Below, piece by piece: positions 1 through 21,300 of a stretch of DNA of 64,000 bases. Source of the stretch: Carcharhinus longimanus. Lineage: Eukaryota. Location: the NCBI GenBank assembly GCA_030264375.1, contig JASCQW010000098.1, forward strand, positions 3,455,471 through 3,519,470, given 5' to 3'. Position numbers and translations under genes: made by a program. The notes under the pieces are model-generated. The model had not been told where the DNA came from, did no database searches, and saw only the letters and a program-made list of their open reading frames with translations. Position 1 is the stretch's first letter; the number at the start of each line of letters is the position of its first letter.

Positions 1-499
1 AATAGGATGGGAATATAGGGAAGGGTAGAGGGTTTTAGTTCAGTTGGGCAGCATAGGTGGTGCAGGCTTAGAGAGCCAAAGTGCCTGTTCCTGTGTTCTT
101 CTTTGTACTCATGATGTGGTATAAATTGGAGATTTTCTGCCTGTGCAGATATGCTTTGATGAACAAAGTAAGGAGTACATTTGTATGCCATTGGTGCAAG
201 CTTCACCCAGCTCTACAGCATATATTAGGAAGGAGAATCATCAACAATTTCCTAATATGCATTCCTAACAGATCAAGTTCTGAATCAGGAGAACACTTAC
301 CCATCAGAACTAAACTTGGAGAAGGAAGAATAGTTCTCTCAAACATAAAAATTAAAAGTACACACTTAAAATGGAAGTAGGGTTTAAGTATGTTCTGCCC
401 AAAGAACTCCCATTTTGGTACAGAATGGCACCTATACTGAAAATTCCAATGATTCATTAAAAGATTATTCACTTAATTACCAATATGCATTCTCTTAAA

Positions 500-860
500 T
501 AAAAGCAGAATACTGGATGCTGGAAAGCTGAAACAAAGACAGAAAGTTCTGGAAAAATTAAGCAGGTGGAATTTTACAGCCTCACTCGTCCTGAAACTGC
601 AAAATCCTGCCTGAGGTCAATGGACCTTTCCATTGTCCGCTCCTCATCTGCTCCATGGTGGGCGGGGCAGTAAAATTCCAGCCTGCAGGTCTGGGAGTGT
701 CTGTGGAGCAAGAAACAGAGTTAAGCTATCAAGTCTAATATGACCCTTCTTCAGATCCTAGGAACAACCATATGGACTCGAAACGTTAACTCTGTTTTTC
801 CCTCTCTCCACAGATACTACCAGACCCACCGAACTTATCCAGCATTTTTTGCTTTGTGTT
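500..860. mobile_element. Two inverted Penelope-like terminal fragments with a nested MITE (567-680)
   Basis: 690-745 and 770-855 are mutually inverted relatives of the 6155-6250 element. The MITE has 11-bp terminal inverted repeats TGGAATTTTAC / GTAAAATTCCA. Confidence 0.55.
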
Positions 861-879
861 CTCTCAAGGACGACCTATG

Positions 880-1312
880 TTCTTCTGAGTCAAAAGGCTG
901 TGTGTTTGAAAACACTTGAAGACAGTACTTAGGGAGTGCTACACCGTCAGAGATGCCATCTTTCCGGTGAGATGTTTAATGCAAGGCCCAAGTGCCCTCT
1001 CAGCTGGGTGTAAAAGACCTCAAGGTTTTTGAGTCACAGGAAAGCAGAGGAGGTATCTCCAGGGTCATGGCCGATATGTATCCCTCAGCCAGCATTCCTG
1101 GAAAAACAGATTAGCTAATCATTTACCTCACTGCTGTTTGTGGAACTTTGCTACATGCAAATTCGCTAACATATTTCTGAAAGACTGAACATCCGACAGT
1201 GTCCTGAACACTGAGTGCCAGCATAGATTTTAAAGTACTCAATTGGCTGAAAAGCGTTTTGGGGTGTCCTGGATTGTGAGTGATGCTATAAACATGCAAG
1301 TTCTTTCTTTCC
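880..1312 (+). mobile_element. Deu-domain SINE (SacSINE1/AmnSINE1-like), decayed
   Basis: Recognisable Deu-domain (GGGAGTGCT...GATGCCATCTTT...GTAAAAGA...CAGATTA...CTGCTGTTTGTGG) and TGCAAGTTCTTTCTTT tail. Partial copies at ~4960-5170 (+), ~11455-11600 (-), ~14545-14680 (+) and ~53350-53450 (-). Confidence 0.7.
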
Positions 1313-1344
1313 TCATCAATTATGGCACTTTTATTAAAAAGAAA

Positions 1345-1580
1345 TACATAGAATCATAGAATCCCTACAGTTTGGAAGGATGCCATTCTGTCCATTGAGC
1401 TTGCACGGACAACAATCCCTTCCACGTCCTATCCCCGTAGCCTCACACATTTACCCCTGCTAATCCCCTTGACTCTAACGGTCAGTTTAGTATGGCCAAT
1501 CCACCTAACCCACATATCTTTGGACTATAGAGGGAAACCTGAACACCTGGAGGAAACCCACGCAGACATGAGGGGAATGT
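1345..1580 (-). mobile_element. HE1-like tRNA-derived shark SINE, partial
   Basis: Shares GGCCAATCCACCTAAC...CACATCTTTGGACT...GGAGGAAACCCACGCAGAC with many other copies in the window. Confidence 0.8.
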
Positions 1581-1687
1581 GGAGTATACAATTCTACAAG
1601 AGGGTATCTTTGAACACATGTTTTCCTGGGACTTTGCCTTCCCCCTTGAACTAGTGAAGAATAACATTGTAATAGAAAACAGCTTAC

Positions 1688-1735
1688 CCGGCAGGCAATC
1701 TCTCCTCTGTTTGCAATAAGGATTTTGTCAAATGT
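1688..1735 (-). CDS. PCCA: Propionyl-CoA carboxylase alpha, coding exon 3 (TFDKILIANRGEIACR); gene continues beyond the left edge or exon 4 was not recognised
   Basis: 48-nt exon bounded by pyrimidine-rich ...cccctcag and gtaag on the minus strand. Encodes the biotin carboxylase N-terminal signature KILIANRGEIA. Phase 0 on both sides. Synteny with ZIC2/ZIC5 favours PCCA over other biotin carboxylases. Confidence 0.95.
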
Positions 1736-2563
1736 CTGAGGGGAAGACAAACACCAAAAAGAAAGTAATTTAACAACTAAAGAATAGGGTTTGGTAATTG
1801 CTCTAAAGTTAACATCAATAGTTAACAAAGTAAAATGAATGTGTCATTCCCACCGAATTTACTCATATTCTCCCATCTTCTCGTGACTCTATTTAAGTCT
1901 ACCAGCTCTGGCTGCTTTCAAGTAGCTGGTCCAAGAGGACATTATTGACATGCTTCACTCAGCCATCTGTTGATCATTAGACTGCAATCAGGCACATGAG
2001 GGTGCGATTTCCCCCCTCCTTTATCTAAAGGAGCTGAGTCAATGCGTATATCTCTACTAATTAACTGAAACAGCAGAAATCTGGCCCAATATTCTTTTCA
2101 TAATCTTATTTGTCCTTTAATTATCTTTTCTACATGCATTCCCAATATTGTAGATCCAAGTGTGCACTCTCCTGGCTCGTTCTAACCCTCCAATATTAAT
2201 CCTATTTTATGAGTTTATTTTCTTTCATTGTTGCTTGCCAAGATATGTCACTTCACATTTCTCTACACTGAACAACGTCTGCCGTCTGTTTGCCCATTCC
2301 ACTAACCTATGCTCTCCTTCAGTTCTCTCTTGCTCAATTTGCCTTGCCTTTATAATTTGGTAGCTGCAAATTTAGATACCTTTCCTTCTGTAGCTGTGAC
2401 CAAATTATCTTCAGAAATGGATAAAAACAAAAATCATTGTGTGTGGATCTATCAGTGACTATCTTATGTTTATGGCCCCAAGTGTTGGTCTAGCCACAGG
2501 TGGAAACATCTTCTCTACATGTGCCCTGTTAAACCCTTAGGAGATCTAACAAGCAGAACTTAC

Positions 2564-2641
2564 TGGTTCATTTGGATCATAAACTGTGGAGTACAACACA
2601 CGAGACACAGCAAAGCTGTACCTGGAGCGAAATGACGCATG
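2564..2641 (-). CDS. PCCA: PCCA coding exon 2 (HASFRSRYSFAVSRVLYSTVYDPNEP)
   Basis: 78-nt open exon between ...tttttctag and gtaagt. Ends in YDPNE, which precedes TFDKIL in vertebrate PCCA. In frame with exons 1 and 3. Confidence 0.9.
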
Positions 2642-3299
2642 CTAGAAAAACAAACATAAATCACTTGATTAGAATCAGTGAAATCAGGATAACATTCANN
2701 NNNNNNNNNNNNNNNNGCAACTTTATATTTACATAGGGCTTTTAATGTAGCAGAACAGAGCAAGCTGCTTCAGAGGAGAGATGAAACACCAAAGGGAATA
2801 TTAAGATGGGTTACCATAAGCTTGATCACAGATCTAAGTTTTGAGAAGCATCTTGGAGGAGGAGGAAGAGCGATAGAGGGGATTCAGGGGTTATGCATGT
2901 AGGAACAGGAAGCTATTCAACCCTCTGAAATAAATCATAACTAATCTGTATTTATATCCATCATCCCATCTCATAGGAAACAGGAGCAGGAGTGGAACTG
3001 AGCCTTCTCAGCCACTCAAATAGATCATCTTGTCATAGTCACCATTATTGAGACCAGCTTTCAACTCCAGATTTTATTAATTGAATTTAAATTCCAGCAA
3101 CTGCCATGGTGGGATTTGATCCCATGTTCCCAGAGCAGTAGCATGGGCCTCTGGATTAGACATCACCACTACACAACTGTCTCACCCGAAAGGATGTAAA
3201 ACCAGGACACCTAGACTCAGGAGAAAGGGTTGGTCGTTCAGGATTGAGCTGAGGAGCAATTTCTTCAATCAAAGGGTTATCAATCTTTGCAATTCCTAC

Positions 3300-4560
3300 C
3301 ATTATTCTTATGAAACTCATCTACAAACTCTGTGTGCTGGGCACATCTTTTTCCTCTGCGAATGGATTCTGAACTTCCTAACCTACAGACCACAATCAGT
3401 GAGGATAAACAACAACACCACCTCCACAATTATCCTCAACACTGGTGCCCCACAAGGCTGTGTTTTCAGCCTCCTACTATACTTCTTATACAACGTGTGG
3501 CAAAATTCTCTTCCAACTTGATTTTCAGGTTTGCTGATAACGCCACCATAATGGGACGGATCTCAAATAATGACAAAACAGAGTACAGGAGTGAGAGAGA
3601 GAATTTAGTGAACTGGTGCAGCGACAATAGTCTCTCCCTCAATGTCAACAAAATGAAGGAGAAAGTCATTTACATCAGGAAGCGTAGCGGAGGACATGCC
3701 CCTGTCCAGATCAATGGAAGTCATGATGTGGAGATGCCAGCGTTGGACTGGGGTAAAACCAGAAAGAAGTCTCACAACACCAGCTTAAAGTCCCACCCAC
3801 CTGATGAAGGAACAGCGTGTTCTGAAAGCTTGTGGCATTTGCTACAAATAAATCTGTTGGACTTTAAGATGGTGTTCTTCTTTACATCAATGGAGACAAA
3901 GACGAAATGGTCGAGAGCTTCAGGTTTGTAGGTGTCCAGATCACCAACAACCTGTTCTGGTCGCCCCCATGCCAACACTATTGTTAAGAAAATCCACCGA
4001 TGCCTCTACTTTCTCAGAAGACTAAGAAAATTTGGCATGTCCGCTACGATTCTCACCAACTTTTACAGATGCACCATAAAAAGCATTCTTTCTGATTGTA
4101 TCACAGCTTGGTATGGCTCCTGTTCTGCCCAAGACTGCAAGGAACTATAAAAGGTCACAAATGTAGCCCAATCCATCACACAAGCCAGCCTCCCATCTAC
4201 TGACTCTGTCTACACTTCCCGCTGCCTTGGCAAAGCAGCCAGCATAATTAAGAACCTCACGCACCCGGACATTCTCTCTTCCACCTTCTTCCTTCAGGAA
4301 AAAGATACAAAAGTCTGAGGTCACGTACCAACCAACTCAAGAACAGCTTCGTCCCTGCTGCTATCAAACTGTTGAATGGACCTACCTCGTGTTAAGCCGA
4401 TCTTTTTCTACACCCTAGCTGTGACTATAACACTATAACACTACATTCTGCACTCTCCTTTCCTTCTCTAATGAAAGGTATGCTTTGTCTATATAGCTTG
4501 GAAAAAAAACAATATTTTTCACTGTATACTAACACATGTGACAATAATAAATCAAATCAA
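3300..4560 (+). mobile_element. Decayed non-LTR retrotransposon 3' half (Rex1/Babar-like RT), interrupted at ~3722-3890
   Basis: Frameshifted RT motifs GAPQGCV, RFADNATIMGRIS and RCLYFLRRLRKFGM...FYRCTIKSIL. Ends in AATAAT(AAATC)n. Confidence 0.8.
3797..3835 (+). ncRNA. Minimal type I hammerhead ribozyme motif in a Penelope-like repeat fragment
   Basis: CCAC-CUGAUGA-A-[GGAACA gcg UGUUCU]-GAAA-GC-UU-GUGG: stem I, intact core, 6-bp stem II, and a palindromic AGCU in place of stem III. Confidence 0.75.
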
Positions 4561-4841
4561 CTTATTTTTCCCACAGAGCTGCAGACATTGAGTACAGTCA
4601 AGGCCAAGTTTTGAGCAGTAGAGAGGCTGAGATATGGCACAGAGCAAGAAAGTGGAGTTGGCATAATACTTCATCCAAGGGCTCATTGACTGGGTAAACT
4701 CGAGGGGCTTTATGACCTTGTCCACTATTACTTCTTATATTCATAAATTGAGGCCCTGTCTGCTCTCTCTGGCATACAGAAAAGAAGTAAGAAGTCTGAC
4801 AACACCAGGTTTAAGTCCAACCAATTTATTTGATAGTAAAC

Positions 4842-4877
4842 TCACAAGCTTTCGGTGTTTGCCCCTTCGTCAGGTGA
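4842..4877 (-). ncRNA. Minimal hammerhead motif, sense to PCCA intron 1
   Basis: UCAC-CUGACGA-A-[GGGG caaa CACC]-GAAA-GC-UU-GUGA. Core intact; stem II has one mismatch. Confidence 0.65.
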
Positions 4878-6211
4878 AACCTGACATTCAACTGATGAAG
4901 GGGCAAACACAGCATCTCCACATCATACAGAAAAGAGCCCACAGCATAATTTGAAGAACAGCAGAGGAGTGCTCCCTGATGTGGCGGCCAACATTTTTCT
5001 CCCAACTAACACACAAAGACAGATATATCTGGTCATTTATTTCACTGCTGTTTGTTGTTGCACCTTGACTGCCACTTTTTCCATTATACCATAGTGAATG
5101 GACCTCAAAAGCATTCAATAGACTATCAAGTGCTTTGGGCCAACCTGAGATCATGAAAGGCAGCTCCTCCAAAACAACAATAATTTCCTCAGTACAACTG
5201 TCTATCTTGTTATGCATAATAAATTGCATTGAACTGCCAAAAACAATTCTTTTTATTCCACAGGATGTGCGTGTCACTGGCTATTGCAGCATTAATTGCC
5301 CGTCCTTCATTGCCTCAGGAATGTGGTGAGCTACTTTCTTGAACTGCTGCAGTCTCTGTGTTGTAGGTACACCAACACTGCTGTTAGGGAGGGAATTCCC
5401 GGATTTTGACCCAGCAACAGTGAAGGAACAGCAATATACTCCCAAATCAAAAGGGTCTGGAGGGATACTTGAAGATGTTCCTAAGTGTCTGCTGCCCTTG
5501 TCCTTCCAGGCTGGTAGAGGTCAGGAGAGTTTGGAAGGTACTGTTGAAGGAACCTTGGTGAGTTACTGCAGCGTATGTTGCAGTTATATTTTGGGAGCAT
5601 TTGGTACCATATTCTCCGGCAATCTTTACTTCCCGTAACCTGAAAGTTGTGCTCTATGATCTGCTATCAAGGATCTGCATATTCAGGAATCTAACAACTA
5701 TCCCATTTGCTGTCATCCGCTCACTGGAGTTAATAATTTTATTCTACACCATCCAATTCTCTTTGAGATCATACACATCACCACCCGCAAACACACAGCA
5801 GAAGCTTAAAGATTAAAGCCACTTTTACATTGACTTTCAAATGGTGATATGAAGCATTAGAAGCAGCACTAAAATTACGGTACATTTATAAAAATACATT
5901 GGCAACATCTGTAATTAGCCACTGGGAAAAACAGCAACTGTTCTAGTTCAGTTAAATTAATCTGTTAATATGGTAAGATAAATTCAGCACATTCCACTGT
6001 CCATCAACTCGCCAACTTCAAGCTTAAAATCTCAATGAGACCTTCACAATCTGCTCTGGCCAACAATTTCCAAAAGAAATCTGCTGTCTTCTGATAAGTG
6101 CACCACTTCTTGACAGCACACTGCCAGGGGCCCGAGTTCAATTCCCAGACCCAAAAGAGAAAATGCTGGAAAATCTCAGCAGATCTGGCAGCATCCGTAA
6201 GGAGAGAAAAG

Positions 6212-6250
6212 AGCTGATGTTTCAAGTCCAGACGACCCCTTATCAAAGCT
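6212..6250 (-). ncRNA. Hammerhead motif with U3:A8 variant core, sense to PCCA intron 1
   Basis: AGCU-UUGAUAA-G-[GGGUC gucug GACUU]-GAAA-CA-UC-AGCU. Confidence 0.55.
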
Positions 6251-6419
6251 AAAAGGCAGAGAAAGTGGGAGATATTTATACTGCAAGCTGAGGAAATGAA
6301 GAATGAGTCATAGCAACAGAAACAGGGAAACCAGTTAATAGCTGTCCACAGAGAGAATGAAGGGTGTGAATGGTCAAATGGCAAATAAAAGGAAGATGTT
6401 GGGGGAAGAGTGGGAAAGA

Positions 6420-6730
6420 AATGCATAGAAAGCAGTGCAGAAAGAGGCCATTCAGCCCATCGAGTCTGCACCGACAGCAATTCCACCCAGGCTGTATCCC
6501 CACATATTCACCCGCTAATCCCTCTAACCTACGCATTCCAGGGCACTAAGGGACAATTTAGCTTGGCCAATCCACCTAACCCGCACATCTTTGGACTGTG
6601 GGAGGAAACCCACGCAGACACGGGGAGAACATGCAAACTCTGCACAGACAGCGACCTGAGCCAGGAATCGAACCCAGGTCCCTGGAGCTGTGAAACAACA
6701 GTGCCATCCACTATGCTACCGTGCCACCCC
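6420..6730 (-). mobile_element. HE1-like SINE, near full length
   Basis: tRNA-like head with B-box GGTTCGATTCC on the minus strand, conserved core, and LINE-derived tail. Confidence 0.85.
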
Positions 6731-6924
6731 AAAATGAAGAAAGACAATAAAGAAATAAAAGGTTGAGTACAGTTAAAAAATTAAATAAAATAGAATGAAA
6801 ACAAAAGGGTAGAGATGGGGTAGAACAAATCATCTAAAATTGTTGAATTCAACGTTGAGACCAGAAGGCTGTGAAGTGCCTGGCCGGAAGATAAGATGCT
6901 GCTCCTCCAGCTTGTGTTGAAATT

Positions 6925-7150
6925 CCTGGCTTGGGTCACTGTCTGTGCAGATCTGCTTGTTCTCCCTGTGTCTGTGTGGGTTTCCTCTGGTTCCGTCCCA
7001 CAGTCAAAAGACATGCTGATTAGTGCATTAGCTATGCTGAATTGTCCCTCAGTGTACCTGAACAGGCGCCGAAGTGTGGCAATTGGAGGATTTTTACAGT
7101 AACTTCATTGCAATGTGAATGTAAGTTACTTGTGACCCTAATAAATAAAC
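6925..7150 (+). mobile_element. HE1-related SINE, alternative-tail subfamily
   Basis: Same core, with a different tail ...CAGTAACTTCATTGCA...CTTGTGAC..AATAAA also seen at 12500-12810 and 13103-13360. Confidence 0.75.
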
Positions 7151-7319
7151 TTTTAAAACAACTCTCATAAGCTGGGTTTTTCCTCCACCACCAAACAAAA
7201 CCAAAGAATATTTAATTCAATTAAAAACAAGAGGCAATTCTCAAAATTAATTGATGTAATTCTGATTTATAAACTACTTGCATGTCTAGACTCAATGTAC
7301 AAGCCACATCATTTTGATC

Positions 7320-7690
7320 ATAAGGACATAAGAACGTAAGAAATAGGAGCAGGAGTAGGCCATCTAGCCCTTCGAGCCTGCCCCCCCCNNNNNNNNNNNN
7401 NNNNNNNNNNNNNNNNNNNNNNNNNNNNNNNNNNNNNNNNNNNNNNNNNNNNNNNNNNNNNNNNNNNNNNNNNNNNNNNNNNNNNNNNTCTCCTTTATTT
7501 CCTTCGATAACCACGGCTGGTTATCCCTTCTCCTACAGTCCTTCTTTACCATCGGAATATATTTCCGCTGAATACTGAAAAAGATCTCCTTAAAAATCCT
7601 CCGCTGTTCCTCAGCCGTCCTACCAACCAATCTGCGCCCCCAATCTATATTCGCCAATTCCGCTCTCATCCTATCAGTCCTTTGAATTGT
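7320..7690 (-). mobile_element. CR1/HER1-like LINE fragments flanking a gap
   Basis: ORF2 segment MRAELANIDW...QPWLSKEIKE and the CR1 3' tail CCTACTCCTGCTCCTATTTCTTA. Confidence 0.75.
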
Positions 7691-7992
7691 GCTGTGGGAT
7701 GTCAATGGAACCACCCACTAATTAAACCAAACCACTCCAATCTCAGATAGTGTGAACAATGTCACAATAACAAATAACTTAGACTGTCACTGATATGTTT
7801 TGATGCAGCTTGGAATATAAGAGAGGGAAATAAACCCACTAATTGTTCCAGAAAATTCAAATCACAAGCCACAATCAGTCCCCCACAGGATCAGGTTTGC
7901 CAAACTCTGGATAGACCTATTCCTGAAGGCTTATTTACAGGACCTCCCAGCTCCAACCGCCAGTCAAGTCAAAGAGCCTTTTACCCCATCTT

Positions 7993-8295
7993 CATAGAAT
8001 CCCTGCAGTTCAGAAGGAGGCTATTTAGCCCATCAAATCTGCACTGACTATAATCCCAACCAAGCCCTATTCCTGTAACCCCATACATTTACCTTGCTAA
8101 TCCCCATGACGTGAGGGTCAATTTAGCATGGCCAATCCACCTAACCTGCACATCATTGGACTGTGAGAGGAAACAGAGCATCCGGAGGAAACCCACACAG
8201 ACACAGGGAGAATGTGCAAACTCCACACCGACAGTCATCCAAGCCAAGAATCGAACCTGAGTCCCTGGCGCTATGAGGCAGCAGTGCTAACCACT
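7993..8295 (-). mobile_element. HE1-like SINE
   Basis: Aligns by eye with 6420-6730. Confidence 0.85.
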
Positions 8296-9279
8296 AATCT
8301 CGGCTATATTTACAATTAAAGTGTTCAAAGAAAATGAGAAAAGACAAAAGCTCCTTTGAATTTTCTCACAAGGTTGGTCATAGCAATGTCCACAGAATCA
8401 GAACGCAACAGAAGCCATGAGTTAAATGTGTTTACCCCTTGAGACAAACTCAGTTTAAACCTTCCTGCACCTCTGTCAAGTTCAGGAATCTGATCATCAG
8501 CAGGTTCAAGAGGTCATGTATAGGTTTGCTTGGCAATAAAGCTCTTTCCATATTTAACATCAAACCATATCAGTGTCAGAGGGTTTCCCCTCAATTCTCT
8601 CTCCTTCCAAAAGCACTAACTATCCAGAGTGTCATCATTGCCATTTTTCAAATCTGAACATCAACAGCGAGTGCTGGCCAGCTATTTGAACATCGGGGGG
8701 TTGGAGAGAAGCTGAAGGCATTAAACCCAATTCTGTCCTGACTTTACGTTGATGTCTCATATCCATCCAATGATAGAAGTCCACTTCCATATGTTGGAAC
8801 AATGATCAAGAGACAGAACTCTTCCTGGAGACATTAGTATTCACTGGATGACCTCTGCTGCCTGAAGTACCTTGGCACTGAGAACAAAGCTGACATTTTC
8901 CAGGTCTCTATGGATCAGTCAAGACCTAAGAGTAATGTAGAGTCTTCAAGCTCATTTATAAGCAAATCACACTGGCAAACAGAAGCTGGCTGGAGGGAGG
9001 GCAGGGGAGGGGGATAGCGGCTGGCCCAGTTGGTTGGACAGCTTGGCTTTCATGCAAATCAGATTAACATCATCAGAACAGGGCTTGATACCCATTCCAA
9101 CTGAGGTAGACACAGGGTCTGCCTCCTTGCCCAACCATAACAAAATAAAGTTGTGGCATTGACCTTCAGACAGAGCAGTCAAAGAGAAAAATCATTCAGT
9201 TCTATCTGGACCCAGGCTAATGCTCTGGGGACAAGAAGCAAATTACAGGATTCGATAATGGATCTAACTATTCAATGAC

Positions 9280-9615
9280 TAGAATCATAGAAATCCTAAG
9301 TGCAGAAAGAGGCCATTTGGCCCATCGAGTCTGCACTGACCATAATCCCACCCAGGCCCCAGCCCCATATCCCTACCTATTCACCCACTAATCCCTCTAA
9401 CCTACACATCTCAGGGCTCTAAGGGGCAATTTTTAGCATGGCCAGTCAGTCTAACACGCACATCTTTAGATTGTGGGAGGAAACTGGAGCACCCAGAGGA
9501 AACCCACACAGGAACGAGGAGAATATCAAATCCACACAGTGACCCAAGCCAGGAATCGAATCCAAGTCCCTGGTGCTGTGAAGCAGCAGTGCTAACCACT
9601 GCGTTACCGTGCTAC
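9280..9615 (-). mobile_element. HE1-like SINE
   Basis: A-box-like GTGGTTAGCACTGCTGC and B-box GATTCGATTCC on the minus strand, with the same core and tail. Confidence 0.85.
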
Positions 9616-9689
9616 TATGCGACCGTGCTACAGTGCCATGTTACAGCCCAGGAGGCCACTTGTGGGTTAGGAAGTCTAGGATCCAGTCA

Positions 9690-10130
9690 CAGAGGGAGAA
9701 GCCAAGCCCCATGAAGTTTGGAGGTGAGTTTTGTAGGAATAATGGCATTAAAGGCTGAGCTATAGTCGTTAAATAGGATTCTGACATAGGTGTCTTTATT
9801 GTCTAGGTGTTCTAGGGTTGAGTGCAGGGCCAGGGAGATGGCGTCTGCTGTGGACCTGTTGCAGCTGTAGGTGAACTGTACAGGATCCAGACAATCTGGG
9901 AGGCTGGAACTGATTCATGCCATGACTAACCTTTCAAAGCACTTCATAACGATGGATGTCAGAGCCACCGGACGATCATCATTAAGGCACTCTGCTTGGC
10001 TTTTCATTGCTACCTAGATGATGGTGGTTCTTCCTGAAGCAAATAGGGTCCTCAGATTGTTATAAAGAGAGGTTGCAATTGTCTACAAACATCACCGCCA
10101 GCCAGTCCACACAGGATCTGAGTGCTCGTC
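9690..10130 (-). mobile_element. Decayed LINE RT C-terminal fragment
   Basis: Minus-strand sequence resembles non-LTR RT/tether regions ([45 protein letters not shown]). Confidence 0.65.
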
Positions 10131-11607
10131 TTATTGTTATGGCTCTGGAGTCACAAGTAGGCCAGATCAGGTAAGGACGGCAGATTTCCTTTGCTAAAGG
10201 AATCAGATGGGTTTTTCCAACAATCGACAATAGTGTCGTGGTTATCAGTAGATCCTCAATTCCAGATATTTTTACTGCATCTTTAAAGTCCCCTAACGGG
10301 ATCGAACCCGGGTCCTTAGAACATTAGCCTTTAGAGAAGGAAATCAGCCATTCATGCCCAGTCTGATCTACATGCAGAACCATAGTAATGTGGTTGACTC
10401 CTAAATGGCCTAGCAAGCCATTCAGTTCAAAGTCAATTAAGGACAGGCAACAAATGTTGGCCTTGCCAAAAATGCCCACATCCCACAAAAGAATAAAAAA
10501 GCCAGTCTGAAGGCATATGAGGTGTTGGGGTACATTCAGATGTACATAGTCACAGAGTCGTACATGACTCTTGGACAATAGAAGATGAAGCATTGGGACT
10601 TGAAACTTGTTTGAAATGCAAAGAAGGGGGCAAGAGTTTGATAAACAAATCAGATTGAAACTCTCTGAAGGTTGCGTTGTCAAGATCATCAAGATTAAAG
10701 TTTCAAAATAAATGTTACGTGTTCCCTCGTGTATACAATGAACTACTGCTCTAAATTCTATGCCTTCAATTGCTTGCTTTTATTGTTTTGAAAACAGACA
10801 TGGATACAGAATTATATTTCTAAACTATCGTATTATAGTATGATCAACAACATTCAATCTTAACAAAAACAAAGTTGGGGGGCTTCAGGATAAACATTTT
10901 TGAATGTGTTAAAACAGTGCTGTTTTCCCCCGGTTCAGTAAACAAAGATCACAAAATAGTAACATCAATACCATTCGACTCTGCAGTAAGGATGTCTCAA
11001 TTAATTATCCAGTATTACTTGATATTGGAGAACCATGCTTGCCATAAGAAAACCTTGATTCTGAGATTCAAACTTCATTTTCCACTTCAAAAACAAATTT
11101 GAAATCAGGCACTTTAAATTTATATTATCCAAGATTATTTTTACTCCACAGAAAGTATATGTATCAATGTGCGGGAGCAACAGATTATTAGGTAAATAAT
11201 AGCAAAGGCTGTAAAGGGAATGACGCATAGCTCAACAAACGTCATCTAGAACTGCCAAACCAGACAAGGGGTGAGTTTTTCCAGCCATACTTGCCCCGAA
11301 GCCAGAAAATCCCACCTGTGGTCAACAGACCTTTCCATGGTCTGCCCCTCGCTCACTACAATTCCCGTGGCGAGCAGAACGGGGAAATTCACCCTAAGAT
11401 GTTAAAACTAACCTAGATGTCACACACCCACATAAACGTAAGAAGCCATTTACCTTTTCAAACAAAATTTACATCTATAAATTGCCTTTCATGACCTCAG
11501 CACATCCTAAAGCGAGGAGTTACTTGTGAAGTGTAACCATTGACGTAACGTAAGAAACATGACATCAAATTTGTACTCAGCATAGTGATAATCTGTTTGT
11601 TCTTTAA

Positions 11608-11920
11608 TCATAGAATCCTTACTTTGCAGAAGGCAACCATTTGGCCCATCAAGCTTGCACTGACAATAATCCCACACACGCCCTATCCCCTTAACCCCAT
11701 ATATTTACCCTGCTAATCCCTCTGACACTAAGGGACAATTTAAAATGGCCAATCAACCTAGCAAGAATACCTTTGGAATGTGGGAAGAAAGCTGAACACC
11801 CAGAGGGAACCCACGCAGGCACAGGGAGAACGTGCAAACTCCATGCTGACAGTGACCTGAGGCTGGAATTGAACCCAGTTCCCAGGCTGTGAGGCAGCTG
11901 TGCTAACCACTGTGCCGCCA
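11608..11920 (-). mobile_element. HE1-like SINE
   Basis: Aligns by eye with the other copies. Confidence 0.85.
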
Positions 11921-11924
11921 AATA

Positions 11925-12225
11925 GATATTGGCCCAGAACACTGGAGGAGAGTCTCCTCTCCCCGGCCAACAGGCGCAGCATTGAGGCTCTAATCACTCA
12001 AAACCAGCTCCACTGGGCAGGACATGTTGTTCACATGTCTGACACCAAACTCCTGAAGGAACTGCACTATCCAGAACTCAGTTGCAGCAGCAGACTACCA
12101 GCCAGAATAATTTGGGGATGCCTTCGAAGCAATCCTGAAAAATTCAAAACTATCTGTCAGATTAATGGGAGACCCTGGCTTGTGACTGACCAAAATACAA
12201 AATGTTCACTGAGGAAGGCTCTGAA
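11925..12225 (+). mobile_element. RTE-clade LINE 3' fragment
   Basis: SIEALITQNQLHWAGHVVHMSDTKLLKEL matches the RTE C-terminal LRWAGHV motif. Confidence 0.7.
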
Positions 12226-20829: not shown

Positions 20830-21300
20830 CATAGAGTCTCTACAGTGCAGAAGGAGGCCATTTGGCCCATTGAGTTTGCACCAACCATAATCCCAGCCAG
20901 GCTGTATCCCCTGCATTTACCCTAGCTAGTCCCCCTGACACTAAGGGGCAATTTAGCATGGCCAGTCCACCTAACCTACACATCTTTGGACTGTGAAGGA
21001 AACTAGATCACCCGCAGGAAACCCATGCAGACATGGAGGGAATGTGCAAACTCCACACAGACAGTGACCTAGGCTAGAATCGAACCTGGATCCCTGGTGC
21101 TGTGAGGTAAATTGAGTTTGAGTCTTTATATGCCCTGTTTGTGAACAGAACTCCCACTCACCTGATGAAGGAGCAGCACTCTGAAAGCTTGTGGTTTGTG
21201 CTACCAAATAAACCTGTTGGACTTTAATCTGATGTTGTGAGACTTCTTACTGTGCTGTGAGGCAGCAATGCTAACCACTGTGCCACCATGCTGCCCTTAG
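20830..21300 (-). mobile_element. HE1-like SINE with nested Penelope-like insertion (21108-21251)
   Basis: The SINE head is split, and GTGCTGTGAGG is duplicated on both sides of the insert. Confidence 0.85.
21159..21193 (+). ncRNA. Minimal hammerhead motif in a Penelope-like fragment inserted into a SINE
   Basis: CAC-CUGAUGA-A-[GGAG cagca CUCU]-GAAA-GC-UU-GUG, with the same downstream flank as the 3797 copy. Confidence 0.7.

What the first reader, a model, noticed from the sequence alone, without database searches (positions are those of the whole stretch)
3797..3835. Intact minimal hammerhead ribozyme enclosed in an inverted repeat
Seen: the complete core CUGAUGA...GAAA...UH with a 4-bp stem I (CCAC/GUGG) and a 6-bp stem II. 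Stem III is reduced to the palindrome AGCU. The motif is bracketed by an 18-nt inverted repeat (AACACCAGCTTAAAGTCC ~3776-3793 / GGACTTTAAGATGGTGTT ~3859-3876), and the unit is inserted in another LINE. Known: Penelope-like elements carry minimal type I hammerheads with palindromic stem III, thought to cleave as dimers, and often have inverted terminal repeats. Inference: this is a short non-autonomous ribozyme-bearing retroelement fragment.
Basis: partly seen in the sequence, partly recalled or inferred. Interest (0 to 1): 0.7.

Follow-up and report, generated by a model that had tools for sequence, protein, structure and literature searches.

The report
Penelope retrotransposon stub with minimal hammerhead
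This is a 165-base mirror-image stub of a very common Penelope-type jumping gene, carrying the small hammerhead RNA motif already known from such elements and likely inactive here; it is ordinary, except that such stubs mostly begin just before the motif, which likely marks where the element's RNA starts.

Summary
The hammerhead motif is there, but it is not fully intact: it has an extra A3808 and a G.U instead of G-C at the base of stem II. A predicted hairpin also blocks stem I. The 18-nt inverted repeat is a slice of a larger unit, 3719-3883. That unit is an inverted pLTR end with its ~38-nt tail plus a forward pLTR end holding the hammerhead, with an 11-bp target duplication in a LINE. The parent is a Neptune/Nematis-type Penelope-like element (RT, CX4CX2C, GIY-YIG; pLTR-ORF-pLTR copy found). 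The core pattern occurs 25,175 times in the genome and stem II covaries between subfamilies. 663 loci share the layout with varied junctions, but only 3 share this exact one, so these are independent insertion products, not a non-autonomous family. The motif, the inverted pLTR and the one-sided tail are all in print, and this scan found the same thing before on other DNA (161 notes, 18 genomes, this genome included). One useful extra: copy starts pile up just 5' of the hammerhead, not at its cut site, and the tail ends at the ORF's ATG. The stubs may therefore be copies of the uncut mRNA leader. Cleavage was not tested.

The parts
3719..3883 (.). Whole insertion (165 bp): inverted pLTR end plus forward pLTR end of a Penelope-like element
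   Evidence: Ends fixed by the target duplication and by empty sites in 10 of 11 other host LINE copies
3708..3718 (+). Target site duplication, left copy (11 bp)
   Evidence: 10 of 11 identical to the right copy
3884..3894 (+). Target site duplication, right copy
3719..3793 (-). Inverted arm: pLTR 3' end with the ~38-nt tail; its outer end reads ATG ACT, the first two codons of the parent ORF
   Evidence: Reverse complement; ORF start after the tail in L092 and L067
3791..3793 (.). Inversion junction with 3-nt microhomology (TCC)
   Evidence: Sequence against relatives; same junction at 3 loci
3791..3883 (+). Forward arm: 5'-truncated pLTR from about 10 nt before C3 to the short (tail-less) end, with a 6-nt deletion after 3876
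3797..3835 (+). Minimal type I hammerhead motif: stem I 3797-3800/3832-3835, core 3801-3807, extra A3808, stem II 3809-3814/3818-3823 (G.U first pair), GAAA 3824-3827, palindrome AGCU 3827-3830, predicted cut after U3831
3830..3847 (+). Predicted competing hairpin 3830-3836/3841-3847 that takes up the cut site and the 3' strand of stem I
   Evidence: six inner pairs at P>=0.93, stem I at P<=0.04
3290..4560 (+). Host: decayed 3' part of a LINE (RT end; limits approximate; Rex1/Babar-like is a recalled label)
   Evidence: RVT_1 E 0.1; PF09004 E 1e-7; 40 scored relatives at 86-93%

Best explanation
The motif is a minimal type I hammerhead sequence inside a 165-bp insertion (3719-3883) made of two back-to-back pseudo-LTR ends of a Penelope-like retroelement with an 11-bp target duplication in a LINE, likely laid down in one insertion event by the parent element's own enzyme and likely inactive as a ribozyme. 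Shown: the anatomy, the parent family (RT, CX4CX2C linker, GIY-YIG), the tail on one arm only, the tail ending at the ORF's ATG, and varied junctions across the genome. Inferred mechanism: the GIY-YIG domain makes an 11-nt staggered cut. Each free 3' end primes reverse transcription at one of two internal start sites about 38 nt apart on the element's uncut RNA (tail end and short end). One cDNA stopped after about 75 nt. The other ran through the hammerhead and ended about 10 nt before it, where many copies end. The two were joined through a 3-nt microhomology. The hammerhead was under selection in the active parent elements (stem II covaries between subfamilies), would work only as a dimer or with protein help, and is a passenger in this stub.
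For: Target duplication and empty sites: (10 of 11 host copies). Parent ORF: RVT_1 E 1.8e-6, YIDD/YIDE and VVYLIRC..WYIGET motifs, pLTR-ORF-pLTR in L091. Two end points: EN-anchored copies end near query 641-655 or 680-683. Tail on one arm only in 25 of 32 inverted units, on neither in 7, on both in 0, and on exactly one arm in 17 of 22 of the closest loci. Target duplications in 15 of 22 and 6 of 12 inverted units, against 0 of 110 and 0 of 60 shifted controls. Independent events: 663 loci with this layout, 3 with this junction. Real motif: 25,175 exact core matches, reversed control 0. Stem II Watson-Crick cells 77.5% against 62.7% with swapped partners, 0 of 10,000 reaching it. 22 cells with two-sided changes against 8.3. 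Literature: cleavage and extension of both strands, two internal RT start sites that bound the tail, and insertion from uncut RNA, all in vitro (PMC11167929).
Against: No cleavage or transcription data for this copy or family. The GIY-YIG Pfam match is weak (E 0.036, below cut-off), and none for the longer piece. The RT score (28.3) is just under Pfam's cut-off (29.6). No intact ORF was seen. Priming on both strands is inferred from end geometry. Template switching or fold-back self-priming (proposed in PMC3846280) could give similar products. The swapped-partner and shuffle controls do not remove relatedness. 7 of 32 inverted units lack a tail on both arms, and 1 of 22 (L027) has it on both.
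Confidence: 0.85

Rival explanations
1. A non-autonomous MITE- or retrozyme-like family with terminal inverted repeats that is copied as a unit.
For: Hundreds of short units of similar size exist (663). The same junction recurs at 3 loci. Retrozymes derived from pLTRs are described (bioRxiv 10.64898/2026.07.22.740005).
Against: The 100 junctions listed are nearly all different. One of the two other loci with this junction (L008 = L124) has the tail on the opposite side and another stem II loop and N17; the third (L126) was not examined. The unit is not a tandem repeat. Exact patterns miss decayed copies, so 3 is a lower bound.
Confidence: 0.06
2. The unit is what deletion or recombination left of a longer inverted Penelope insertion after it landed.
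For: Long inverted insertions exist (for example L027, L068, L071), long palindromes are unstable (general knowledge), and the junction has microhomology.
Against: Random deletion would not put 37 of 76 copy starts within -20..+8 of C3, nor give an 8-fold drop in copy number across the 5' edge of the hammerhead. Many short copies have no inverted partner.
Confidence: 0.07
3. This copy is a working ribozyme that cuts host transcripts passing through it.
For: All core bases are present, and the isolated 39-mer folds as drawn (stem I P 0.95-1.0).
Against: With natural 3' sequence stem I falls to P<=0.04. The first stem II pair is G.U. The unit holds a single motif. A single minimal motif showed no cleavage in PMC4209133, and 8 of 9 Xenopus dimers did not cleave.
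Confidence: 0.04

Closest known systems
Minimal type I hammerheads (min-HHR) in pLTRs of metazoan Penelope-like elements (Cervera and De la Pena 2014, PMC4209133; parts 1-2 of 4 read)
   Same: Short stem I (4 bp), unpaired base between A9 and 10.1, G10.1-C11.1 in most family copies, palindromic 15.2-16.2, high stem II variation within a genome, mostly solo copies from truncated elements.
   Different: This copy has G.U at 10.1-11.1 and a predicted hairpin over the cut site. The parts read list fishes, coelacanth, frog and reptiles and do not name this family.
EN+ PLE insertions with inverted 5'-truncated pLTR, one-sided 30-40-bp tail and TSD (Pen2a_Av, PMC3846280; Fig. 2 legend of PMC8557442; passages read)
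   Same: Inverted truncated copy next to the forward pLTR, ~38-nt tail on one arm, short TSD (8-10 bp there, 11 bp here), overlap at the inversion junction.
   Different: No ORF at all: the shortest form, 165 bp, with only one arm reaching the hammerhead.
Poseidon element PAc of Anolis (Frangieh et al. 2024, PMC11167929; parts 1-2 of 4 read)
   Same: Two RT start sites bounding the tail, roughly 120-130 nt 3' of the hammerhead core; uncut RNA as template fits the intact motif in the insertions.
   Different: In PAc the ORF begins at stem II. Here the ATG lies at the tail end, 128 nt after C3, and the parent has the CX2-5CxxC linker of Neptune/Nematis.
Non-LTR retrozymes (bioRxiv 10.64898/2026.07.22.740005; parts 1 and 3 of 5 and passages read)
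   Same: pLTR-derived, non-coding, type I hammerhead.
   Different: Retrozymes are defined as head-to-tail tandem units with at least two hammerheads. This is a single fold-back unit with a TSD.

Membership tests
Metazoan PLE min-HHR | Core CUGANGA / GAAA / UH with type I topology | tested here: met
Metazoan PLE min-HHR | Unpaired base between A9 and 10.1; palindromic minimal stem III | tested here: met
   A3808 and AGCU; both at least 90% conserved at A3808, C3829, U3830 in 46 copies
Metazoan PLE min-HHR | G10.1-C11.1 pair | tested here: not met
   G.U in this copy. G-C in 23 of 30 positional copies and 28 of 46, so met by the family, likely lost here by CpG decay
Metazoan PLE min-HHR | Covariation in stem II | tested here: met
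   relatedness not controlled
Metazoan PLE min-HHR | Self-cleavage as dimer or with protein | not testable with these tools
   Folding suggests a blocking hairpin
EN+ Penelope-like element | Single ORF with RT and C-terminal GIY-YIG between pLTRs, in the parent family | tested here: met
   only broken copies seen; Pfam GIY-YIG match weak
EN+ Penelope-like element | Inverted truncated pLTR, one-sided 30-40-bp tail, TSD | tested here: met
Neptune clade | CX2-5CxxC linker between RT and EN | tested here: met
   PCHSNLCKTC; shared with Nematis
Neptune clade | Placement in an RT tree with reference PLEs | not tested
   No reference sequences at hand; Neptune is favoured only because one search lists Neptune and Poseidon for vertebrates
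Non-LTR retrozyme | Tandem units with at least two hammerheads | tested here: not met
   One motif in the unit, no tandem copy
Non-autonomous TIR element (MITE-like) | Many copies with one fixed structure and matched terminal repeats | tested here: not met
   3 loci with this junction against 663 with the layout; arms unequal

The most novel reading that the evidence does not exclude
The tens of thousands of short stubs are cDNA copies of the parent's uncut mRNA leader. Transcription starts 10-20 nt before the hammerhead, reverse transcription starts internally at the ATG/tail end and at a second site 38 nt upstream, one on each strand of the cut target, and runs off the RNA's 5' end. The genome would then record the start site, both priming sites and the fact that the ribozyme has not cut the template.
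Probability: 0.4. Interest if true: 0.45.

Novelty: new member of a known kind. Interest (0 to 1): 0.17.

Why it matters
The copy itself matters little: it is one of more than 25,000 decayed motifs of a known kind, and the scan has reported the same structure many times. The family-level pattern has modest value. Copy starts cluster at the 5' edge of the hammerhead, show no excess at its cut site, and the tail ends at the ATG. This fits the one in vitro study of an active Penelope-like element and gives a cheap test (5' RACE, junction census) of how the inverted ends arise and when the ribozyme acts.

Tried and rejected
Rfam scan of 1-12000 at E<=10: 7 weak miRNA/snoRNA matches, no hammerhead family. 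RNA search: no RNA holder listed for this stretch. Four runs guessed to be RNA, from other organisms and held only as contigs, were laid on a natural 5' pLTR-ORF copy: they show no starts, ends or clean splice joint, and cannot by their nature. Co-folding two copies did not return the double hammerhead as best structure; energy models ignore core contacts, so this was not used. Ribozyme cut as the source of copy starts: only 3 of 76 starts lie at +26..+31 of C3, no spike. Hidden subfamily or spliced exon upstream of the pile-up: among 37 copies only one pair shares upstream sequence other than the inverted arm. A formal core-versus-flank conservation test was not run, because dead copies decay neutrally; covariation between subfamilies was used instead. 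The hairpin probabilities printed used wrong pair indices; one search has the right ones. Lunse et al. (dimer cleavage) was not held and is known only through a review passage. Searches for a description of this family or of the truncation cluster listed nothing that describes them, judged from titles, abstract starts and the passages read; subscription papers, Repbase/Dfam and supplements were not seen and may hold the family.

Full report
Observation. The motif is at the stated place: stem I CCAC 3797-3800 with GUGG 3832-3835, core CUGAUGA 3801-3807, GAAA 3824-3827, palindrome AGCU 3827-3830, N17 = U3831. A descriptor of my own found 2 motifs in the window and none in 200 dinucleotide shuffles. 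Two details were missed. A3808 is an unpaired extra base, and the first pair of the 6-bp stem II is G3809.U3823. Of 28 close relatives that aligned without gaps (out of 29 tried), 18 have C there and 10 have T, which fits CpG decay (inference). The 18-nt inverted repeat matches at 17 of 18. Rfam has no matching hammerhead model at E<=10.

The real unit. Comparison with the 30 best genomic matches shows that both arms are copies of the same element end. The left arm, 3719-3793, is the inverted end with a tail of about 38 nt. The right arm, 3791-3883, is the forward end without tail and with a 6-nt deletion. They overlap by TCC at 3791-3793. An 11-bp duplication flanks the unit (3708-3718 and 3884-3894, 10 of 11). 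In 10 of 11 other copies of the host LINE the site is empty, with a single copy of that sequence; the eleventh breaks off there. The host is a decayed LINE 3' part; the label Rex1/Babar is recalled.

Parent element. Longer copies extend upstream into a Penelope-type ORF: RT (RVT_1 E 1.8e-6, 28.3 bits against a cut-off of 29.6), a PCHSNLCKTC linker and VVYLIRC..WYIGET. Pfam's GIY-YIG match is weak (E 0.036) and absent for the longer piece. L091 holds pLTR-ORF-pLTR over about 3.1 kb, with stops and frameshifts. The linker fits the CX2-5CxxC motif of Neptune and Nematis (PMC8557442 passages); no tree was built. In L092 and L067 the tail is followed at once by ATG and the ORF; L091 has AGG there. 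The outer end of the window's left arm reads ATG ACT, so the tail ends at the start codon. That the host is a shark comes from the scan's other notes and my recall, not from a tool result.

Is the hammerhead real at family level? An exact core pattern occurs 25,175 times, the reversed control 0 times. In the first 30 places (two of them arms of one insertion), stem II, which the pattern leaves free, has 77.5% Watson-Crick cells against 62.7% with swapped partners, 0 of 10,000 swaps reaching it; 21 of 30 have at least 3 pairs. In 46 copies (2 from the window, 44 from EN- or RT-anchored loci, out of 94 that covered the motif), 89.5% of cells pair and 22 show two-sided changes against 8.3 in shuffles. 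These controls do not remove relatedness, but changes such as G-C/A-U at two stem II positions mark selection in the parent elements. This matches the published min-HHR (PMC4209133, parts 1-2 read).

Is this copy active? Probably not. Alone, the 39-mer folds as drawn. With its natural 3' sequence a hairpin 3830-3836/3841-3847 takes up the cut site, and stem I falls to P<=0.04. This is a family trait: a stem I pair reaches P>=0.5 in only 7 of the 43 rows (of 46) that could be folded with flanks. A single min-HHR did not cleave in PMC4209133. The Anolis ribozyme needed the element's protein and was dispensable for insertion in vitro (PMC11167929).

Family or repeated product? 663 loci have a short inverted end within 30 nt of the hammerhead, and the 100 listed junctions are nearly all different. 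The window's exact junction occurs at 3 loci including itself. One of the others has the tail on the opposite side and a different stem II loop (L008); the third was not examined. Among the 30 closest loci, 22 have an inverted arm, 17 of these have the tail on exactly one side, and 15 have a target duplication (0 of 110 controls). Among 29 positional loci, 12 have an inverted arm and 6 a duplication (0 of 60 controls). In a set anchored 3' of the hammerhead (90 copies, 14 dropped for N at the junction), 32 have an inverted arm upstream: tail on one side in 25, neither in 7, both in 0. This is the known PLE insertion pattern (PMC8557442, PMC3846280; passages), made anew each time.

Where copies begin. 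Of the 76 copies, 37 start within -20..+8 of C3, 19 at +9..+51, 6 at -100..-21 and 14 further up; 3 lie at +26..+31, around the cut site. The estimate rests on 14 natural references and local alignment, and some starts at +35..+46 are artefacts of subfamily differences. Independent counts agree: an 18-mer 3' of the motif occurs 42,016 times, one at -31..-14 occurs 5,310 times and one at about -117 occurs 4,294 times. In 19 long copies the three are exact in 5, 6 and 6. Subfamilies missing from those 19 could inflate the step, but 37 pile-up copies share no hidden upstream sequence, bar one pair. So the step lies at the 5' edge of the hammerhead, not at its cut.

Mechanism. Shown: anatomy, parent, two end points, independent junctions. 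Inferred: a staggered cut, priming from both target strands at two internal sites on uncut RNA, and joining by microhomology. PMC11167929 shows both-strand cleavage and extension and two internal start sites in vitro, in another clade. The simplest reason for the pile-up is that the template's 5' end lies there, so that the stubs copy the mRNA leader from start site to ATG. An internal pLTR promoter is known for Drosophila Penelope (PMC2377424 passages), but no start site was measured here, and fold-back self-priming (PMC3846280) remains a rival.

Verdict. A new copy of a known kind. The scan has noted it before: 161 findings in at least 18 genomes hold the search words, and 7 notes in this genome fit, one of which already mentions joins clustering at the ribozyme's edge. 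Interest 0.17; the leader model has probability 0.4 and would deserve 0.45.

Noticed in passing
window 4786-4923: A second fold-back insertion of another subfamily, with a perfect 13-bp duplication (4773-4785/4924-4936), a hammerhead on the minus strand (C3 at 4873) and a forward arm that jumps from stem II to the tail.
   Followed up: partly
window 21108-21252: A third, solo forward pLTR end with hammerhead (C3 at 21162) and a perfect 10-bp duplication (21098-21107/21253-21262), inside what looks like a SINE (label recalled).
   Followed up: partly
L091 (G000:C27:115967800-115974300, minus strand): Near-complete but broken pLTR-ORF-pLTR copy whose 3' pLTR breaks inside stem II and runs into an inverted 300-bp piece of its own RT region; its two pLTRs are only 76% alike.
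   Followed up: partly
pLTR, about 13 nt before C3 (for example L011, L035): A pyrimidine-rich run ending in CAG resembles a 3' splice site just before the hammerhead, as described for Drosophila Penelope; no spliced form was seen.
   Followed up: partly
L005, L015, L022, L023, L027: Several loci hold two Penelope stubs or extra DNA between the arms within 1.5 kb, which shows how dense the family is (about one core match per 107 kb).
   Followed up: no
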